This document shows, piece after piece, positions 10,070-48,178 of a stretch of 64,000 nt of DNA. Where the stretch lies: NCBI RefSeq assembly GCF_009914755.1, contig NC_060925.1, one strand, 5' to 3'. Both the position numbers and the translations under genes were made by a program. Below the pieces are notes generated by a model. That model ran no database searches. It was given only the letters and a program-made list of their open reading frames with translations, and was not told the origin of the DNA. The stretch's first letter is position 1, and every line of letters starts with the position of its first letter. Origin of the DNA: the human T2T-CHM13v2.0 reference genome, Homo sapiens.

Positions 10070-10381
<312 letters not shown>

Positions 10382-10899
10382 CCTCCTGCCTCTTAACAAA
10401 TAGACATCTAGGCCTAAAAGTCACCATTTGGAATTTTAAGTAAACAGCTGAATAAAACACTACTCTTGCTTATGAGCTAGAGGAAATGTCTACACATGGT
10501 CTTGATTTTGGTCACAACTTTCAATTACAAGGAAATAGAAATTTAATTTCTTTTCATAGCTATAGACAGAAGATATCTCCCTAGGTGAATATAATATACT
10601 CCACAGGAAAATACCTAACAAAATCTTGTTATTTCTAAAACTAAACTAAATAAATTCGGGGCTTTTGGTACAGCTAAAGCTTAAGCAACCCTTTATTTTT
10701 GGAAGAAATACATCGCAAATCAGTGAGCTGCCCCACCTTTCATTCCACCTCCCATTCTGCAAACATCTAAAGATGCCCAAGTTTAGATATTTCTGCTGTT
10801 AGAACATTCCTTCCTGTTTCAGTGAGTGATCTTTTGATCTTGGAACAAAAAGAACATAACAAAACAAGAACAGTAAATTCTGGAAAACACTAACCAAAA

Positions 10900-11242
10900 G
10901 GAAGTATACTGTTTACTCTTTATTACCTTGAAACAATAGGGTATTCACTTTTTCTTCCCCGTAACTCAGTTTAACAGTCTTCATTTGAAAGAAACAAGGC
11001 AGAATACATTACTAGTCCTTCTTAATGCTTTCTTACTCAATTTGTTTATAGACTATTAGGTCCCAATCATCTTCCTTTTAAATATTTTTTGCTATTAATG
11101 GCACTGATTACAGAGGAATCACACATTACTTCAAGTGAATTTCCATTCTGAGTTGCAGAACTTCTATGTTTTTGACTGGTGAGAAACGAAGTACACCCTC
11201 AAGAAAAATAAGTCATAAGAAAAACCACTGTATTAGGGCTAC
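10900..11242 (-). other. Candidate spliced alternative terminal exon downstream of the distal poly(A) site
   Basis: Acceptor tttcctcttctcttgcag|G (AG 11244-11243). AATAAA at 10924-10919 followed by a U/GU-rich downstream element. Confidence 0.55.
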
Positions 11243-11774
11243 CTGCAAGAGAAGAGGAAATCTTATAAAATTAAGACACAAAGAGAGAACTCTTTATACA
11301 GTACTTCCTGTAAATTGGCAGTATCTCCCGATGATGCATCCAAACTGTCCAACAAAGCTTTCCTCAAATAATCCCCTCACCACTTCTCCTTCACTTGTGG
11401 CATGTCACATCGAGGGCACAAGGGCACTGGGGCAATAAAAAGCCTACTGAAAGCACTGTACAAGTGTTTACGTTTGCCCACCTCTGTAGATTCTCTAGGA
11501 TCATTTCCAAAATGCCACAATTTCCTCACAAAAACGCTATTGGCAGCCTGTTATGCCACAGCCAATATTCCTATCTGCCACCTGTAGATCTAGTTCTAAC
11601 CTCAGTCAAGCTTCCTGGCAATTTAATAAATCTCTGGGGAGTTCAGCCTTTTCATTTTTACTATCCTACTCCTTCACTACCTTCCTTAGAACAGGTACAG
11701 TATCTAGTACTAAATTTGAAGACAGAAACTCCATTTAACTACAAAAGCCTAAATCACATAACTACTAAATCTGT

Positions 11775-11923
11775 TTTGCACAATCAAACCCATCACACCC
11801 CACCCAAAATCACCAACACAACATTTTGAACATGTTAAATTTTATTAAAAATATTTAACATCGTACAAATATTCCAATACAGTTATGGTACATGAACACT
11901 GTACCAAAAGCATGATTTTTATT
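11775..11923 (-). terminator. Distal poly(A) site: AATAAA 11846-11841 (second copy 11923-11918), upstream UGUA x3, GU-rich downstream element
   Basis: TGTA at ~11864, 11878 and 11889. Downstream tgtgttggtgattttgggtggggtgtg on the minus strand. Confidence 0.8.
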
Positions 11924-13547
11924 AAACTGATGATTAAATGGAAAAGGTCTTGCAAATGTCCCTATTTTGGTATTTCTTATGTTACTATATCCATATCAGC
12001 AATTTATGTTTGCAGGAGCCTTCAGTCCAATTATAGAAATAGTCTTAGAACATAGTACCTAACATTATAATGGGATTCACTAAGTACAAGTCTACCTACA
12101 TTATCGAAGAGGCTAGAGAAGTCCCTTTTGCCCAACCCTCATATGTGAGAAATCAAGAAAAGCAATGTTCATGGGATCCTGACAAATCTACTATATAAAG
12201 TGAGAGCCCTTATTTAAATTTGAGCAATTTAAGTTTTTCCCCAGAATGTCTCCTTTGTTGGTTCCACAAAATGTATTTTGTTTTTAGTGTTTAAAGTCAA
12301 CAAACTGGCATTGCATTTTCCTTAACTTACATAAACTCATCAGAATTACATGAATATTCCTACTGCTTACCTTAAAACTTCCTAAGGAGCATGCTATTTA
12401 GTGCTAAGTTTTATACCCTGATCCTTTCTGTCACTGACACATGCATAAAATGTTACCTTAACACAACCCTGCAATCACTACAATTCTTAAAAGTATTACA
12501 TAATTTCATTCTAGTGTTGTACAACTAGTCTATAGCAAACTTACAAGTAAGGGTTTATATTCATGACACTGACTAGCACATTTAACATCTAGGAAAGTCT
12601 TTCTAGACTGATATTCTCAACCAATAAAGAAGATACAGTGCTGTAAGAATACTGAGAAGGTTCTTCAGGCATGAAAATCCATAATTACTTTTAATCAGTG
12701 TTTATACCATATTACAATTATTTTTTATATGGTATGGTCAGAAATGCCTAGTTACTAAATTTAATTTCAATCTATACCTTACCATCATGGAATCCCCTAC
12801 AAACTATAAGATGAGGGATTTTAATCTTTAGCAATAATTTAAATATTGACTCTTAATTCTACCAATATCTGCTAATCCTATCAGCTACCCTAGCTTTCAC
12901 ACAAAACACAAGTTGTTCATAGGTTTATGTTTCTGCTATGTTCAAGGTCTTAATATTTCAGCTATGTAATTTCCTCTTGACCCAAAGTCATTGTCTCAAC
13001 ATATCTCTAAATTGAGGCCATTATTGTCAAACTGCTAAAACTTTTTAAAGTTTCATTTTACAGTGTTAAGATTACTTTGGAAGATTTTTAAAAATAGTAT
13101 CTTTGGTGTTTAAGCCCTCCATTCTATCAATGTCTTCTTGTTTTCACTAAAATTAGTGTGCAATAAATATCTCTTTAAGATGCATTATATGTTAATCTAT
13201 CCAACAAAATATAGAAAATATAATACTAGACTGAAATGACAGTTAAAGCAAATTTATTGTCTCTCCAACAGACTTTTTAAGATTATAAGGTGTCTATTTT
13301 GCTCACTTAAAATATACCCTGAGTATTTCATTACTTCATACTTGCAGGCCTTTCCTGCTGATCTGCTACCAATTTAAAAGTAAGTGAAGTGTTATTATAT
13401 GTTCCTATTAAGAACAAAATAATTTAATATTAAAGTCCTATTTTTCTACAAGGCTGACATAATTGCCCACTTATAGGATATGGGCATTCTCCCACACTTA
13501 ATGCCCCACTACTGATAAAAAAAAAAATAGGAAAAAAAAGTTCTTAC

Positions 13548-13708
13548 CAACAATTCCACTGGTTATCGTCCCCAGCGAACCCCACCTAGCAAGTCGACAT
13601 CATGACATGTCAGGTCAGGGCAGCCTCAACCTCGCTTCCCTGATAGTCAGGTGATAAAAGGAAGGAGTTAAAACAGGAAAAGTACACTTGCAGATTTCTG
13701 GATAACAT
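13548..13708 (-). other. Candidate 3'UTR cassette exon (acceptors at 13708 and 13639; donor TTG|GTAAGA)
   Basis: Two pyrimidine-rich acceptors (ttttttaatcattttcag|ATG; ccttttatcacctgactatcag|GGA), a consensus donor, and local CpG retention in an AT-rich UTR. Confidence 0.6.
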
Positions 13709-13721
13709 CTGAAAATGATTA

Positions 13722-13756
13722 AAAAAACAAAAAAACAAAACAAAACAAAACAAAAC
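13722..13756 (-). repeat. (TTTTG)n / U-rich tract upstream of the 3'UTR cassette acceptor
   Basis: aaaaaaacaaaaaaacaaaacaaaacaaaacaaaac on +. Confidence 0.8.
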
Positions 13757-16700
13757 CAGAGCTTCTGGTAACCTCTAAATAAAAAAGTATATATATGTAC
13801 TTTTATTTAAAGAAAAAAAACTTTTCTAGAAGGATTAACAATAATTAACTTCAAATTAAATATTATTAAATTGCTGACCAATACATTGTATATGCAATAT
13901 TTTTAAAGCTTGGTGTTTGCATTTGAAAATTAAGACCTAATCAACAAACTTCTAATATAAAAGTAAACATGTCTGGCTAATGGATTTGTTATTCTGGATT
14001 CTCCAGTCAGTCATCCAATCTACTGGTTTCCTCAGAACAACTCCACCCCTAAGTTAACAGAAGCTCCCATTCTTAGAGAAACATAAACACACTTATAAAT
14101 CCAGTGTAGTCTTTCTATAAGGCTTTTTCTTAGTTGCTCACTTAAGAGATTCCACATAATAATTGTCCACATAATAATGGACTACACTAATATTAACTTT
14201 GGTTAGTTTTCTTTAAGAATATTGGTAGCTCAGTATAATAAAATTATCTTTGAAAAATCAAAATGACAAGTTTTAACATATTTAGAAGCCTTGATAATTG
14301 ACAAGCAATAGCCTTATAGCAAGTATTTACTGGAAGGGTTTGGTTTTACAAATGCACAATTAATAAAACGTAGGTATGATTATATTCAAATGGGCAGGAG
14401 GCAAATGATGTAATGAGTTTCAAGAATAATATTATATGGCTTTATGCTAGGAGTGAAATTTTATGTCCCTTCTCTTTTAGAATTTAAAATATATAATTTA
14501 TTTTTTTGCATGCTGACCTTTTTAAAAAGAATTCATCTCCTAAGTCAGATTTCAAAGTCAAAAGAGAGAAAAATTATCTCCTACTATCAGAAAGCATTGG
14601 GCTTTCTTATGCAGAATAACCCCAGTAACTAAAAAAACCTGAAAAACAATTATGCTGAACTCATTTTAAAAAAACTACAGAATCATAACTCATTTTCCTT
14701 ATCTTTTCACCAAATAAACCTGCATTTATTAGAAATCTGGCAACTTATTAGAACTTTTTTGCTCTTAAAAATTAAAATACCTTCATATAAATACATACAT
14801 TTAAGCAACTGCTATAAATGAGTGATCAAATAAAAATTAGTATTCCATTATGGGGAGGGGCATATTTGTATCGGTCTCACCAGGGTACCTACAAAGAATA
14901 GCTCTATACCTCAATATATTTCCCAACACACACTTTACTGTAACAGGCTCATAAATAAAGCCAAATCAATTAGCTTGGGGAACAAAAAAGATGGAAAGAC
15001 AGGAGAGCAGGAAACCAAATTCCTTACACTCATAATTTGTACCTAATTTAAAAAAAAAAAATGCCAATCTAGAATAAAGACCTCCCTCAACTGACATTTT
15101 TCAGGTTTATATATTACACTGTTAGATTTATTTATGTGAAAAGTTGAGCTCTGAATCTATTTTCTCTGAATGCTGCTACAGTGTTAATTTACAAGACATG
15201 AAAGAAGAAAAGCTCTTGAGTTTTAATGTTTATAGGATTATGCTTTACAATTTAAAATAGCCACAAAACCTATAAACCAAATATTAGAGGGTACCTCTGC
15301 AAATATATTTTTAATTAGTGAAAAGGACAGAGGAGGAGGTGGCCACTTTAAAATTCAAAATATAATTTGCAATTAAAGGAAAGGATTTTGACATGGAACC
15401 CAAGTTTTAATCTTATGTTTTTGCGAGGGTTTGTTTTCTCAGAATCATTTCTATCCCCATTCTTAGCATTCTTTATGACAACTTTGTAGCTTGTAACACC
15501 TAATTAAGAAATACAAACAACTCAAATTTTATTTGTAGATTTTGTTCTTTCCAGGAAAAAAATCAGGGTTTTACTTAAGTCTAATTAGATGTATAGTTAC
15601 AACTTCAAATTGTACTTTCAAAGTTTAAAAGCAGCATTTAAAGAATGTTTGGTGTCTTTACTTGCATACATGGGCATAAGAAAAACAACTGGATCTGTCT
15701 TACCAAAGAAATACCCATGTTAACTCAAAACTATCATACAACAGACCATAATTCCTTTATCAGTTTCCAAAAAACTAAAATATCAATAAGGTCTGTTAAA
15801 TGACTATACTGTGTAATGAGTGTACTTTGAAAAAGAAATGAAATATATTGACTTTCATCAGTAAATAGTAATCTTAAATTGAAATGAAAAGAAGCCATGA
15901 AACCCAATATGATCTAGCCAAGATTACACGGAATTAAGTGGCTTATGATTTTGAAATCTAATATTCCTATCACAAAGACACCAAACAGGAACAAAACACA
16001 GAATAATGGTGTATCCATTTTAATTATTCCCCAATGGCTTCTGATATTTTTATCATTATAAAAACATTTGAGAACCACGTAAGAATAAGATGGAGGGGAA
16101 AACTTAATAGTAATTTGAAAGTGATTCACTTTTCTGTACCGTAAAGCTTAGATTCTTTTGTTCCTCTCATTCTCAAGCAAAAAAGTCATTAGAATAAATC
16201 AGAATTTCTAAAGGAAATAGGGAAATAGATGTTATGTCTTGGCCAACAAAAAATTTGGGCATCAGGGATAGCAGATAAATAAAAATAAACGAAGTGTTAA
16301 CAGAAAGTCAAAGGTATTACTACTGGATATTTTTAAGCCTCTCTTACAAGGCATGAATGTTTCTCAAAGCAAATTTACATAGTAATAGGAAATTATATTC
16401 CTAAACCAGTAACTGAAATGGTAGTCACGATCATTTTCACTAAAACTAAAGTCCGCAGTGCAATTGACGCCACAGTACTAACAATTTTCCCTGTATGTAC
16501 ATTCACTTATCCAGCAAATAAGGTCTTCAGTCACAAATTATCCCTTATAAAGAATGTGGGTCAAAATAAATTGCAGTCTGCTTTCCCAGCCACATTTTAT
16601 TTGTTTTAATGCAAATTATCCAATGCCTGCAAGAATGCTCAAAAGTCTATGAACCTGTTTTTTTTTTTTAATAAAAGATAAAATTTCAAAATTAGAAGAG

Positions 16701-16941
16701 ACTATGAGAGAACACCAATCAATGAAAGTGCTAATTGGAATAAATACTTGAATTTAGACTAATCCTCAGTCTAATATCCACAACACATGTTGGAATAAAC
16801 AAGAAATTTTGCATGAATTTGATCACTCACATAGGCAGTTATACTTTGAAAACAATATTCCTTGCAAGGATTACGAATAAAATAATGTTTTAGGACACAA
16901 TTGAATTTGAAATAGGTAATGTTTTGAATAGATTTTTTAGT

Positions 16942-16947
16942 TTTATT
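16942..16947 (-). terminator. Proximal poly(A) signal AATAAA (~650-nt UTR)
   Basis: TTTATT on + strand. Further AATAAA copies at 17203-17208 and 16596-16601. Confidence 0.7.
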
Positions 16948-17587
16948 GAAATCTTACATGAACAAGAAATTGGAAATACAATCACATCAAAGAACAAATT
17001 GTCACGGCTTTTGACGTTTAAGCCAAACAAATTTTGTAGGGCAGATTTCAAAAAGGTGTGAAGTTATAACAATTTAAAAACACAGTTAACCTACTTCTAG
17101 GAATGCAAAACATACAATCATAGGTTATTTTCAATACAAGAAAACTTAAATTTGTTTGCTTTAATTTCTTAAAACTACTAAGACAAAGCACTAGCTTGTA
17201 TTTTTATTTACAGCATACTCCATACTCCTATGTAATCTATCCCAAATCCAAAAAAATGAAACTGTCCAAAACCAAAGGTTCTGCAAAATCATGATTTAAC
17301 AGTGTGCCCAGCTTGTTTTGAAGCTAAAATGAAGCCTGAAACGATAAAAGCATTGTAATCCCCAGAATAAGGGAACTCTGCAAGCCCAATAATGTCCAAG
17401 AGCATTTATGAAAAGAGGAAAAATAAAAAGACTTGAGTATATACACAATAGTGATTTCTTCAGCCCAATACAAATGGCAGCAAAATGCTACTTAAAGATG
17501 AAACAGTTAAGCCAATTTTTTTTTTTGAAGAATGTAGATCTAGAGCCAATCGTATCTTGCCAGTATCATTTTCAAGCCCTTACTTGT

Positions 17588-48178
<30,591 letters not shown>

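What the first reader, a model, noticed from the sequence alone, without database searches (positions are those of the whole stretch)
10900..17587. Hidden 3'UTR splicing module: candidate NMD/APA autoregulatory switch
Seen: a donor CAA|GTAAGG only 4 nt after the stop codon (GT 17583-17582), a cassette exon at 13639/13708-13548 with donor TTG|GTAAGA, and a terminal acceptor at 11242 with its own AATAAA (10924-10919). By the established 50-55-nt rule, the +4 junction alone is NMD-invisible, so direct 17584->11242 splicing would give a stable mRNA with a ~345-nt UTR that lacks the 5.8-kb UTR. Including the cassette adds a junction 96 or 165 nt after the stop, which should trigger NMD. Analogous 3'UTR architectures are established for HNRNPD, HNRNPDL and HNRNPA2B1 (poison exons) and TARDBP (3'UTR intron versus poly(A) choice). 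Inference: a three-state switch (long UTR / short spliced UTR / NMD) that could be controlled by hnRNP R itself or by its paralogue SYNCRIP.
Basis: partly seen in the sequence, partly recalled or inferred. Interest (0 to 1): 0.85.

Follow-up and report, generated by a model that had tools for sequence, protein, structure and literature searches.

The report
Old alternative exon inside HNRNPR 3'UTR
The HNRNPR 3'UTR holds an ancient alternative exon, related to the exon that makes the hnRNP Q1 form of its sister gene SYNCRIP, but the proposed three-state self-regulating switch is only partly backed by evidence.

Summary

- **Acceptor 13639 and its 92-nt exon are real and old.** This is the only stretch of the 3'UTR beyond the first ~27 nt after the stop that still aligns with paralogue SYNCRIP (E 9e-12). 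It aligns to the exon that encodes the hnRNP Q1 C-terminus.
- **That SYNCRIP acceptor is used.** A processed pseudogene carries the junction, and 29 of 125 database proteins, from shark to human, end in the Q1-type tail.
- **A mouse-lemur hnRNP R model uses 13639.** Its tail (…PPPRGKRG) can only come from an in-CDS donor at 17917 spliced to 13639.
- **The +4 donor (17584) is plausible but unseen.** It is the strongest donor in the last exon, but its use would leave the protein unchanged, so protein databases cannot show it.
- **Acceptor 13708 has no support.**
- **Acceptor 11242 scores highest in the region but is not beyond chance**.
Its poly(A) site lies inside the proposed intron.

NMD sensitivity and autoregulation remain untested. 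This is a new member of a known kind.

The parts
17588..17590 (-). HNRNPR stop codon TAG
   Evidence: the CDS ends at 17588 in all 18 RefSeq mRNAs.
17578..17586 (-). Post-stop donor motif CAA|GTAAGG. Last exon base 17584, 4 nt after the stop.
   Evidence: Matrix score 7.66 bits, rank 9 of 399 GT sites, 38th percentile of 439 real donors, and the best donor in the last exon. SYNCRIP has only a weak ACA|GTAGGG (3.14 bits) at the aligned place. Retrocopy HNRNPRP1 is unspliced here. No junction evidence is obtainable with these tools.
17911..17919 (-). In-CDS donor GAG|GTAGAG. Last exon base 17917, phase 1.
   Evidence: Weak matrix score of 3.53 bits. Reading 17917 to 13639 gives ...GAPPPRGKRG*. 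This is identical to the C-terminus and the 528-aa length of Microcebus murinus hnRNP R model P0038.
17650..17658 (-). In-CDS donor-like CTG|GTAACT. Last exon base 17656, phase 1; present in both paralogues.
   Evidence: 6.57 bits in both genes. The SYNCRIP counterpart is used in caecilian model P0057, which ends ...GGDHSGKRGRGRS. Use in HNRNPR was not seen.
16942..16947 (-). Proximal poly(A) signal AATAAA. It gives a short 3'UTR of about 663 nt and lies inside the proposed intron.
   Evidence: Retrocopy HNRNPRP1 (chr10, 90.7% identity) runs unbroken from 18199 to 16922 and ends in an A-rich tail just after this signal. The mouse short 3'UTR isoform is the dominant one. That the mouse site matches this one is my inference.
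13640..13730 (-). Conserved upstream flank of the alternative exon: TAAC branch-point-like motif, pyrimidine tract and AG at 13641-13640.
   Evidence: BLAST block 13730-13578 against chr6:86829813-86829663, E 9.4e-12. The last 40 intron nt are 28/40 identical to SYNCRIP.
13548..13639 (-). 92-nt alternative exon, paralogue of the SYNCRIP hnRNP Q1 exon. Stops in all three frames lie 62-78 nt before its 3' end.
   Evidence: The pattern AG|G-K-R-G-stop occurs only here in the whole window. The sequence is unique in the genome.
13540..13547 (-). Donor TTG|GTAAGA after the exon; the SYNCRIP counterpart is ATG|GTAAGG.
   Evidence: 6.36 bits, rank 13-14 of 399. The SYNCRIP counterpart ranks 2 of 513 but was left unspliced in the SYNCRIPP1 source mRNA. 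Use in HNRNPR is unknown.
13709..13710 (-).
   Evidence: 4.07 bits, rank 17 of 430. There is no AG at the aligned SYNCRIP position. Unsupported.
13253..13258 (-). AATAAA 381 nt after acceptor 13639. Candidate poly(A) signal if the exon is terminal, as in SYNCRIP.
   Evidence: Homology of this region to SYNCRIP is not significant: 39 of 300 shuffles reach the observed score. This is inference by analogy only.
11824..11846 (-). RefSeq poly(A) signal (AATAAA 11846-11841) and annotated transcript end (11824). UTR length 5,764 nt.
10895..11244 (-).
   Evidence: Best acceptor score in the region, 12.65 bits, 78th percentile of real acceptors. About 0.46 such sites are expected by chance. No similarity to the SYNCRIP 3' end: 51 of 100 shuffles reach the score. 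Unique in the genome. Lies in repeat-free DNA. The 3' end at ~10895 is estimated, not measured.

Best explanation
The HNRNPR 3'UTR contains an ancient alternative 3' exon whose acceptor is at 13639. It is the paralogue of the SYNCRIP exon that makes hnRNP Q1.

**How it is reached.** Splicing runs from a donor in the last coding exon. Donor 17917 is documented in a lemur model. The stronger donor 4 nt past the stop (17584) is plausible. Any such splice removes the proximal poly(A) site at 16947, which makes the main, translated short-UTR mRNA. Splicing and proximal polyadenylation therefore exclude each other.

**What follows depends on how the exon ends.**
- If it ends at a poly(A) site, as in SYNCRIP (candidate AATAAA at 13258), the +4 donor gives the normal protein on a different UTR of about 0.4 kb. 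An in-CDS donor gives a truncated protein lacking the distal RGG, NLS and Q/N-rich tail.
- If its conserved GTAAG donor (13548) is spliced onward, a junction lies 62-96 nt past the stop in every frame. That transcript is expected to be degraded by NMD.

**Shown versus inferred.**
- Inferred: use of 17584 and 13548 in human, NMD sensitivity, and any feedback by hnRNP R or SYNCRIP.
For: 1. A block at 13730-13578 aligns to SYNCRIP chr6:86829813-86829663 (68% over 156 columns, E 9.4e-12). It scores 62.5 bits against a maximum of 44.0 in 100 shuffles. It covers the branch-point and pyrimidine tract, the AG and the exon, and GTAAG follows in both genes.
2. The SYNCRIP block reads (Q)GKGVEAGPDLLQ*. 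This is the hnRNP Q1-specific tail printed in PMC6125337.
3. Retrocopy SYNCRIPP1 joins the in-CDS donor directly to this acceptor.
4. 29 of 125 retrieved proteins end in this tail, from shark to human. Five more end in GKRGRGRS, which is the same acceptor read in another frame.
5. Lemur hnRNP R model P0038 (528 aa) ends ...PPPRGKRG. This equals human 17917 to 13639, and it is the only place in the window that can encode that tail.
6. Donor 17584 is the best-scoring donor in the last exon.
7. The proximal poly(A) site lies inside the intron, and a retrocopy shows it was used. The mouse short-UTR isoform is dominant, and the long forms are nuclear and less stable.
8. Hnrnpr is listed among 19 splicing factors with AS-NMD evidence in Upf2-deleted mouse liver.
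9. The cassette has stops in all three frames, 62-78 nt before its donor.
10. No repeat of 100 bp or more lies between 10359 and 22108. At 11,750 bp, this gap is in the top 0.44% of chr1 gaps.
Against: - No RNA reads or transcript catalogue could be consulted, so no human junction was seen.
- RefSeq has 0 of 18 models with a 3'UTR intron.
- The only HNRNPR retrocopy covering this region is unspliced. No retrocopy contains the cassette or the 11242 exon.
- The lemur evidence is a single automatic gene model, and donor 17917 is weak (3.53 bits).
- By motif score alone the cassette is no better than 5 other exon-like pairs in the UTR.
- In the forced global alignment, exon identity (57/96) is only modestly above the flanks.
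- In SYNCRIP the GTAAGG donor was not used in the retrocopied mRNA, so the poison-exon mode is not shown in either gene.
- Homology downstream of the donor is not significant.
- The mouse AS-NMD event is unnamed; Table S5 was closed.
- The 55-nt rule did not predict UPF1 sensitivity of 3'UTR-intron transcripts in HCT116 cells.
Confidence: 0.6

Rival explanations
1. It has three states: a long unspliced UTR; direct 17584-to-11242 splicing giving a stable ~345-nt UTR; and cassette inclusion (13708 or 13639 to 13548, then 11242) giving NMD. hnRNP R or SYNCRIP sets the balance.
For: - All motifs are present.
- Acceptor 11242 has the best score of 430 AG sites, 12.65 bits, stronger than any of the 10 annotated HNRNPR acceptors (0.57-7.94).
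- AATAAA lies 318 nt downstream and is followed by a T/GT-rich stretch.
- The exon lies in unique, repeat-free DNA.
- Recalled, not from any call: the Ensembl gene record for HNRNPR is about 0.9 kb longer at its 3' end than RefSeq's. That would place its end about 30 nt after this AATAAA.
- hnRNP A2/B1, D/DL and TDP-43 use 3'UTR splicing for feedback.
Against: - About 0.46 acceptors this strong are expected by chance in 6.9 kb.
- A[AT]TAAA occurs 24 times in the region, so a signal within 350 nt is expected anyway.
- There is no similarity to the SYNCRIP 3' end (51 of 100 shuffles reach the score).
- The exon lies beyond the annotated poly(A) site.
- Acceptor 13708 is not conserved.
- The model ignores the dominant short UTR.
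- No paper on R/Q autoregulation was found.
Confidence: 0.15
2. The conserved block is kept for a function other than splicing in human HNRNPR, for example a protein-binding or localisation element of the long 3'UTR. On this view the splice-site-like motifs are relics of the ancestral Q1-type exon and are no longer used.
For: - RefSeq shows no splicing here.
- HNRNPR lacks the Q1-type phase-0 donor.
- The most conserved exonic stretch lies after the Q1 stop codon, so it is non-coding in SYNCRIP too.
- The mouse long-UTR forms are nuclear.
Against: - Conservation covers the branch-point-like TAAC, the pyrimidine tract, the AG and GTAAG, which is the pattern expected of an exon.
- The lemur hnRNP R model uses this acceptor.
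- Across vertebrates, several different donors of SYNCRIP splice into the same acceptor.
Confidence: 0.15
3. The GTAAGG 4 nt after the stop works mainly as an unspliced U1 snRNP binding site. In this role it would influence poly(A) site choice or nuclear retention of HNRNPR transcripts rather than act as a donor.
For: - The motif matches 7 of the 9 consensus donor positions (read directly from the sequence).
- A consensus 5' splice-site motif in a terminal exon inhibits mRNA export, according to PMC4380460 (I saw only the search-listing abstract).
- The mouse medium and long UTR isoforms are nuclear.
- Retrocopy HNRNPRP1 shows the site unspliced in a germline mRNA.
Against: - The short-UTR mRNA carries the same motif, yet in mouse it is cytosolic, stable and ribosome-bound.
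- A terminating ribosome would cover a site 4 nt past the stop.
- This reading does not exclude use as a donor.
Confidence: 0.1

Closest known systems
SYNCRIP hnRNP Q1 alternative 3' exon (chr6:86829724-86829636 in this assembly)
   Same: Homologous sequence with the acceptor at the same aligned position, a branch-point-like TAAC, a GTAAG 89-92 nt downstream, and a position 1.8-3.9 kb after the main stop. Several donors of the last coding exon can splice into it.
   Different: - SYNCRIP has a phase-0 in-CDS donor GGG|GTACGT that HNRNPR lacks. The exon therefore recodes the SYNCRIP C-terminus ((Q)GKGVEAGPDLLQ). In HNRNPR the strongest available donor lies after the stop.
- The SYNCRIP Q1-frame stop lies exactly 50 nt before GTAAGG. 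HNRNPR stops lie 62-78 nt before it.
- SYNCRIP has a TAG|CAG tandem acceptor. HNRNPR has a single AG.
TARDBP 3'UTR intron 7 versus proximal poly(A) site (pA1)
   Same: The main poly(A) site lies inside an alternative 3'UTR intron, so splicing and proximal polyadenylation exclude each other. Longer forms are nuclear or unstable. For the TARDBP side I saw a review figure-legend passage in PMC7547044 and the listing abstract of PMC3950720.
   Different: For TARDBP, binding of the protein to its own 3'UTR and the resulting switch have been shown experimentally. For HNRNPR nothing of this was tested, and no such report was found.
3'UTR AS-NMD units of HNRNPA2B1 and HNRNPD/HNRNPDL
   Same: An hnRNP gene with splice sites in its 3'UTR that would place a junction more than 55 nt after the stop. 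The families are described in review passages.
   Different: In those genes, NMD sensitivity and auto- or cross-regulation have been measured. Here only the geometry and an unnamed mouse AS-NMD listing exist.
[quoted passage not shown]
   Same: The donor lies 4 nt after the stop. This class is common: 23 of the 76 chr1 MANE mRNAs with a 3'UTR junction have it within 10 nt of the stop. The class is enriched in RNA-binding protein genes (PMC7310861 passages).
   Different: Members of that class have annotated junctions. HNRNPR has none in RefSeq. I could not see the paper's gene list (S3 Table was closed).

Membership tests
Paralogue of the SYNCRIP hnRNP Q1 exon | Significant sequence homology covering the acceptor and the exon | tested here: met
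   E 9.4e-12. 62.5 bits against a maximum of 44.0 in 100 shuffles. AG and GTAAG are aligned.
Paralogue of the SYNCRIP hnRNP Q1 exon | Phase-0 donor inside the last coding exon at the Q1 position | tested here: not met
   SYNCRIP has GGG|GTACGT (5.66 bits). HNRNPR has no phase-0 GT scoring above 2 bits at the corresponding point of the coding sequence. Its only phase-0 candidates lie elsewhere and are weak (3.66 and 3.89 bits).
Paralogue of the SYNCRIP hnRNP Q1 exon | Encodes a ...VEAGPDLLQ-type C-terminus found in proteins | tested here: not met
   Frame 0 would read GSEVEAALT*. None of the 125 retrieved proteins has that tail. The one HNRNPR model using the acceptor reads frame +1, GKRG*. The searches saw only proteins of about 112-567 aa with named sources.
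Paralogue of the SYNCRIP hnRNP Q1 exon | Acts as a terminal exon with its own poly(A) signal | tested here: inconclusive
   SYNCRIPP1 shows this for SYNCRIP. HNRNPR has AATAAA at 13258, but homology there is not significant (39 of 300 shuffles reach the score).
hnRNP 3'UTR AS-NMD autoregulatory unit (HNRNPA2B1, HNRNPD/DL type) | Exon-exon junction more than 50-55 nt downstream of the stop in a real transcript | not testable with these tools
   The geometry allows it: +96, or 62-78 nt after in-exon stops. No reads or transcript catalogue were available. RefSeq shows 0 of 18.
hnRNP 3'UTR AS-NMD autoregulatory unit (HNRNPA2B1, HNRNPD/DL type) | Isoform rises when NMD is inhibited | tested here: inconclusive
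   PMC3446288 section 9 lists Hnrnpr among 19 factors with AS-NMD evidence in Upf2-deleted liver, with the canonical isoform down more than 1.5-fold. The event is given only in closed supplementary tables.
hnRNP 3'UTR AS-NMD autoregulatory unit (HNRNPA2B1, HNRNPD/DL type) | [quoted passage not shown] | not tested
   No CLIP data were available. PMC8643683 only speculates on autoregulation, and for exon 2. The reviews do not list hnRNP R or Q.
TARDBP-type 3'UTR intron versus poly(A) site competition | The dominant poly(A) site lies inside the alternative 3'UTR intron | tested here: met
   AATAAA 16947 lies within 17583-13640. Its use is recorded by HNRNPRP1. The mouse short UTR is dominant. That the mouse and human sites are equivalent is my inference.
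TARDBP-type 3'UTR intron versus poly(A) site competition | The intron is activated by excess of the gene's own protein | not tested
   No experiment or dataset was available.
Stop-codon-proximal 3'UTR intron class | Observed donor within 50 nt after the stop, conserved in vertebrates | not testable with these tools
   The motif is present at +4. The GT is kept in a tamarin read-through model, since Val is always GTN. No other vertebrate genomes and no reads were available.

The most novel reading that the evidence does not exclude
HNRNPR and SYNCRIP inherited one alternative 3' exon from their common ancestor, before the bony vertebrates diverged. SYNCRIP kept it as a coding switch that makes the Q1 form. 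HNRNPR converted it into a non-coding device: a donor placed 4 nt past the stop leaves the protein untouched, deletes the main poly(A) site, and either swaps the 3'UTR or, through the retained GTAAG donor and stops in all frames, sends the transcript to NMD. [quoted passage not shown]
Probability: 0.15. Interest if true: 0.7.

Novelty: new member of a known kind. Interest (0 to 1): 0.45.

Why it matters
- **Disease relevance.** HNRNPR and SYNCRIP are both genes in which rare variants are linked to neurodevelopmental disorders (review passages). A conserved unproductive or UTR-switching splice would be a natural dosage control. If it is NMD-coupled, it could be a handle for raising protein output with splice-blocking oligonucleotides.
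- **Annotation.** RefSeq models here show no 3'UTR splicing, so variants at 13641-13640, 13547-13546 or 17583-17582 would currently be read as plain UTR variants.
- **Evolution.** The pair would illustrate how one ancestral alternative exon can be coding in one paralogue and purely regulatory in the other.

Tried and rejected
- **Retrocopies as fossil cDNAs for the spliced UTR.** The cassette and the 11242 exon match only themselves in the genome. The one HNRNPR retrocopy covering the stop is unspliced.
- **Homology beyond the cassette.** None was found. Downstream of the donor, 39 of 300 shuffles reach the score. For the 11400-10800 region, 51 of 100 do.
- **Mapping the mouse 3' RACE primers onto human.** The aim was to place the mouse medium and long UTRs. 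The two short-UTR primers match exactly in the CDS. The medium and long primers do not map; one 4-mismatch hit lies in a masked repeat.
- **Literature search by recalled gene-end coordinates.** This returned only PubMed-id coincidences.
- **Frac-seq paper PMC3787259.** Its HNRNPR event concerns a 5' cassette exon, as its primers and text show, so it is not relevant here.
- **Odd C-terminal tails of database models.** Sheep models P0004 and P0005 and other odd tails (P0020, P0058, P0026, P0110) do not map to the human 3'UTR.
- **Rfam.** 0 matches in 10300-18300.
- **Papers that gave nothing useful.** PMC10287951 and PMC8056596 had nothing on this question.
- **Motif scoring rejected as sufficient evidence.** The weight matrix was trained on gene-dense, GC-rich loci only: 20 of the 60 planned. 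It under-scores T-rich acceptors; annotated HNRNPR acceptors sit at the 1st-28th percentile.
- **A counting detail.** In one search the claimed pair 13639-13548 fell out of its own count through a floating-point tie at the threshold. The 5 pairs listed there are all other pairs.
- **Closed supplements that may bear on the claims.** PMC3446288 Tables S3 and S5 (which Hnrnpr event). PMC7310861 S3 Table (whether HNRNPR is among the proximal 3'UTR-intron genes). PMC10338680 Supplementary Fig. 2 (positions of the three mouse poly(A) sites).

Full report
**Observation.** On the minus strand the stop TAG is at 17590-17588, followed by ACAA|GTAAGG, with the last exon base at 17584. AG dinucleotides precede 13708 and 13639, and TTG|GTAAGA ends at 13548. 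...TCTTGCAG|GT starts at 11242, and AATAAA is at 10924-10919. All 18 RefSeq HNRNPR mRNAs have one unspliced last exon, 18200-11824. The 11242 exon therefore lies 582 nt past the annotated end.

**Are the motifs more than chance?** I trained position weight matrices on chr1 MANE splice sites taken from 20 gene-dense loci. Of 444 donors, 439 were GT and were used, together with 447 acceptors. Only 20 of the 60 planned loci could be fetched.

Among 399 GT and 430 AG sites between 17587 and 10701:

| Site | Rank | Score (bits) |
|---|---|---|
| Donor 17584 | 9 of 399 | 7.66 |
| Donor 13548 | 13-14 of 399 | 6.36 |
| Acceptor 13639 | 12 of 430 | 4.91 |
| Acceptor 13708 | 17 of 430 | 4.07 |
| Acceptor 11242 | 1 of 430 | 12.65 (next best 7.85) |

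- The 10 annotated HNRNPR acceptors score only 0.57-7.94, so the matrix is harsh on T-rich tracts.
- Five other exon-like pairs in the UTR score at least as well as the cassette.
- Acceptors of at least 12.6 bits occur 9 times in both strands of the window, which gives about 0.46 expected per 6.9 kb.
- Motif strength alone therefore validates neither the cassette nor the terminal exon.
- A donor as strong as 17584 within 10 nt of the stop has an expectation of about 0.012 (8 other such sites in 6.9 kb).

**The paralogue test.**
- I compared the last exon plus downstream DNA with the 3' end of SYNCRIP (L028). Besides the coding region, which aligns to 27 nt past the stop, exactly one further block was found. 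It is window 13730-13578 against chr6:86829813-86829663, with 68% identity over 156 columns and E 9.4e-12.
- UTR against UTR it scores 62.5 bits. The maximum in 100 dinucleotide shuffles is 44.0 (mean 31.3), and a reversed control scores 29.7.
- The block covers a TAAC branch-point-like motif, the pyrimidine tract, the AG before 13639 and the exon. GTAAG follows 92 nt later in HNRNPR and 89 nt later in SYNCRIP.
- The AG before 13708 is absent from SYNCRIP.
- Nothing downstream of the donor is significantly similar, and neither is the 11242 region.

**What the SYNCRIP block is.**
- In frame it reads GKGVEAGPDLLQ*, with the stop 50 nt before GTAAGG. This is the hnRNP Q1-specific tail; PMC6125337 prints it as VKGVEAGPDLLQ (passages).
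- The processed pseudogene SYNCRIPP1 is 97.5-98% identical to SYNCRIP. It joins the in-CDS donor GGG|GTACGT to this acceptor at the upstream AG of a TAG|CAG pair. It then continues unspliced for 351 nt through GTAAGG to just past AATAAAGAATAAAG. In that mRNA the block therefore began a terminal exon.
- I held 125 related proteins in total: 12, plus 113 new among the 120 listed. In those two searches, 6,270 and 6,014 sample-only candidates were left out. Of the 125, 29 end in a ..VEA.. Q1-type tail. They come from mammals, a turtle, frogs, teleosts, eels and a shark.
- Five more end in GKRGRGRS, which is the same exon entered in another frame.
- The acceptor is therefore ancient and receives several different donors.

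**Is it used in HNRNPR?**
- HNRNPR lacks the Q1 phase-0 donor.
- However, P0038, a 528-aa Microcebus murinus hnRNP R model, matches the human last-exon translation for 95 residues and then ends in KRG. This is exactly the reading of human donor GAG|GTAGAG (17917, phase 1) joined to 13639, and it reproduces the 528-aa length.
- The pattern AG|G-K-R-G-stop occurs once in the 64-kb window, at 13639.
- A splice from the +4 donor would leave the protein unchanged, so protein databases cannot show it. It is nonetheless the strongest donor in the last exon.
- None of the 125 proteins has the frame-0 tail ...EVEAALT.

- HNRNPRP1 (chr10, 90.7% identity) is colinear with 18199-16922 and ends in an A-rich tail just after AATAAA 16947. 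It is a fossil of an unspliced mRNA with a UTR of about 663 nt.
- In mouse, 3' RACE found short, medium and long Hnrnpr 3'UTRs. The short form is the most abundant, most stable, cytosolic and ribosome-bound. The medium and long forms are confined to the nucleus (PMC10338680, section 8 read in full).
- The proximal site lies inside any intron that starts at 17583. Splicing and proximal polyadenylation therefore compete, as described for TARDBP (review figure-legend passage; listing abstract).

**NMD.**
- The cassette has stops in all three frames, 62-78 nt before its donor. From the +4 donor the second junction is at +96. If 13548 is spliced onward, NMD is expected by the 50-55-nt rule.
- Whether that donor is used is unknown, and SYNCRIPP1 shows the opposite for SYNCRIP.
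- Hnrnpr is named among 19 splicing factors with AS-NMD evidence in Upf2-deleted mouse liver, with the canonical isoform reduced more than 1.5-fold (PMC3446288, section 9). The event is given only in closed tables.
- The rule itself is soft. Some stop-proximal 3'UTR introns do respond to NMD or EJC loss, mostly those 36 nt or more from the stop (PMC7310861 passages). In HCT116 cells, position relative to 55 nt did not predict UPF1 sensitivity (PMC13223760 passages).
- Stop-proximal donors are a common class. On chr1, 76 of 1,994 MANE mRNAs have a 3'UTR junction, and 23 of those have it within 10 nt of the stop.

**The 11242 exon.**
- In favour: the best acceptor score in the region, a poly(A) signal with a T/GT-rich stretch after it, unique sequence, and a location inside an 11,750-bp repeat-free gap that is in the top 0.44% for chr1.
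- Against: the score is within chance expectation, there is no paralogue similarity, and it lies beyond the annotated end.
- From memory only, the Ensembl gene record is about 0.9 kb longer at the 3' end than RefSeq's. That would end close to this signal. I could not check this.

**Literature on regulation.** Five searches found no paper describing HNRNPR 3'UTR splicing or hnRNP R/Q autoregulation. Two reviews list A1, A2/B1, D/DL, L/LL, PTBP1/2 and TDP-43 but not R or Q (passages). One paper only suggests autoregulation, and for exon 2.

**Verdict.** The finding contains a real and interesting element: an ancient alternative 3' exon shared with SYNCRIP. It sits in an architecture that resembles known hnRNP and TDP-43 3'UTR controls. 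The specific three-state wiring is unproven, as are acceptor 13708, the 11242 exon and the proposed autoregulation. The dominant short UTR was overlooked.

Noticed in passing
L004 (chr10:21641632-21645804), matching window 18199-16922: HNRNPRP1 is a processed pseudogene, 90.7% identical to HNRNPR. [quoted passage not shown] It is unspliced at the +4 donor.
   Followed up: yes
L006 (chr20:6254701-6258065), locus 1501-2216: SYNCRIPP1 is a young (97.5-98% identity) retrocopy of the hnRNP Q1-type mRNA. It uses the upstream AG of a TAG|CAG tandem acceptor. Both acceptor forms also appear in database proteins (RGRGGKGVEA and RGRGQGKGVEA).
   Followed up: yes
L007 (chr11:102250598-102250746): An isolated 153-nt fragment, 86% identical to the RGG-coding part of the HNRNPR last exon (window 17913-17761), lies near YAP1 and LOC105369460.
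   Followed up: no
window 10359-22108: No masked repeat of 100 bp or more occurs across 11,750 bp. The gap covers the last three exons, the whole 3'UTR and 1.4 kb beyond the annotated end. It is in the top 0.44% of repeat-free gaps on chr1.
   Followed up: partly
window 13756-13721: A (GTTTT)n / T-rich tract lies just upstream of the AG before 13708, inside the flank of the conserved exon.
   Followed up: no
window 17526-17516: A run of 11 A begins 62 nt after the stop. It could cause internal priming artefacts in oligo-dT 3'-end data for this gene.
   Followed up: no
Neither has a SYNCRIP counterpart.
   Followed up: partly
P0007 (Fukomys), P0011 (Saguinus); window 17587-17543: Two faulty protein models read past the HNRNPR stop. 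They show that the first ~45 nt of the 3'UTR are well conserved in a rodent and a New World monkey. The tamarin model keeps a Val codon (GTN) at the donor GT.
   Followed up: partly
PMC6125337 versus L028 and the proteins: The paper prints the hnRNP Q1 tail as VKGVEAGPDLLQ. The genome sequence and the retrieved mammalian proteins give (Q)GKGVEAGPDLLQ.
   Followed up: partly
P0079, P0081 (Triplophysa, labelled hnRNP Q): Their tails, ...GKGLEAALD..., resemble the frame-0 reading of the HNRNPR cassette (GSEVEAALT) more than the usual Q1 tail. This may bear on which fish paralogue keeps which form.
   Followed up: no
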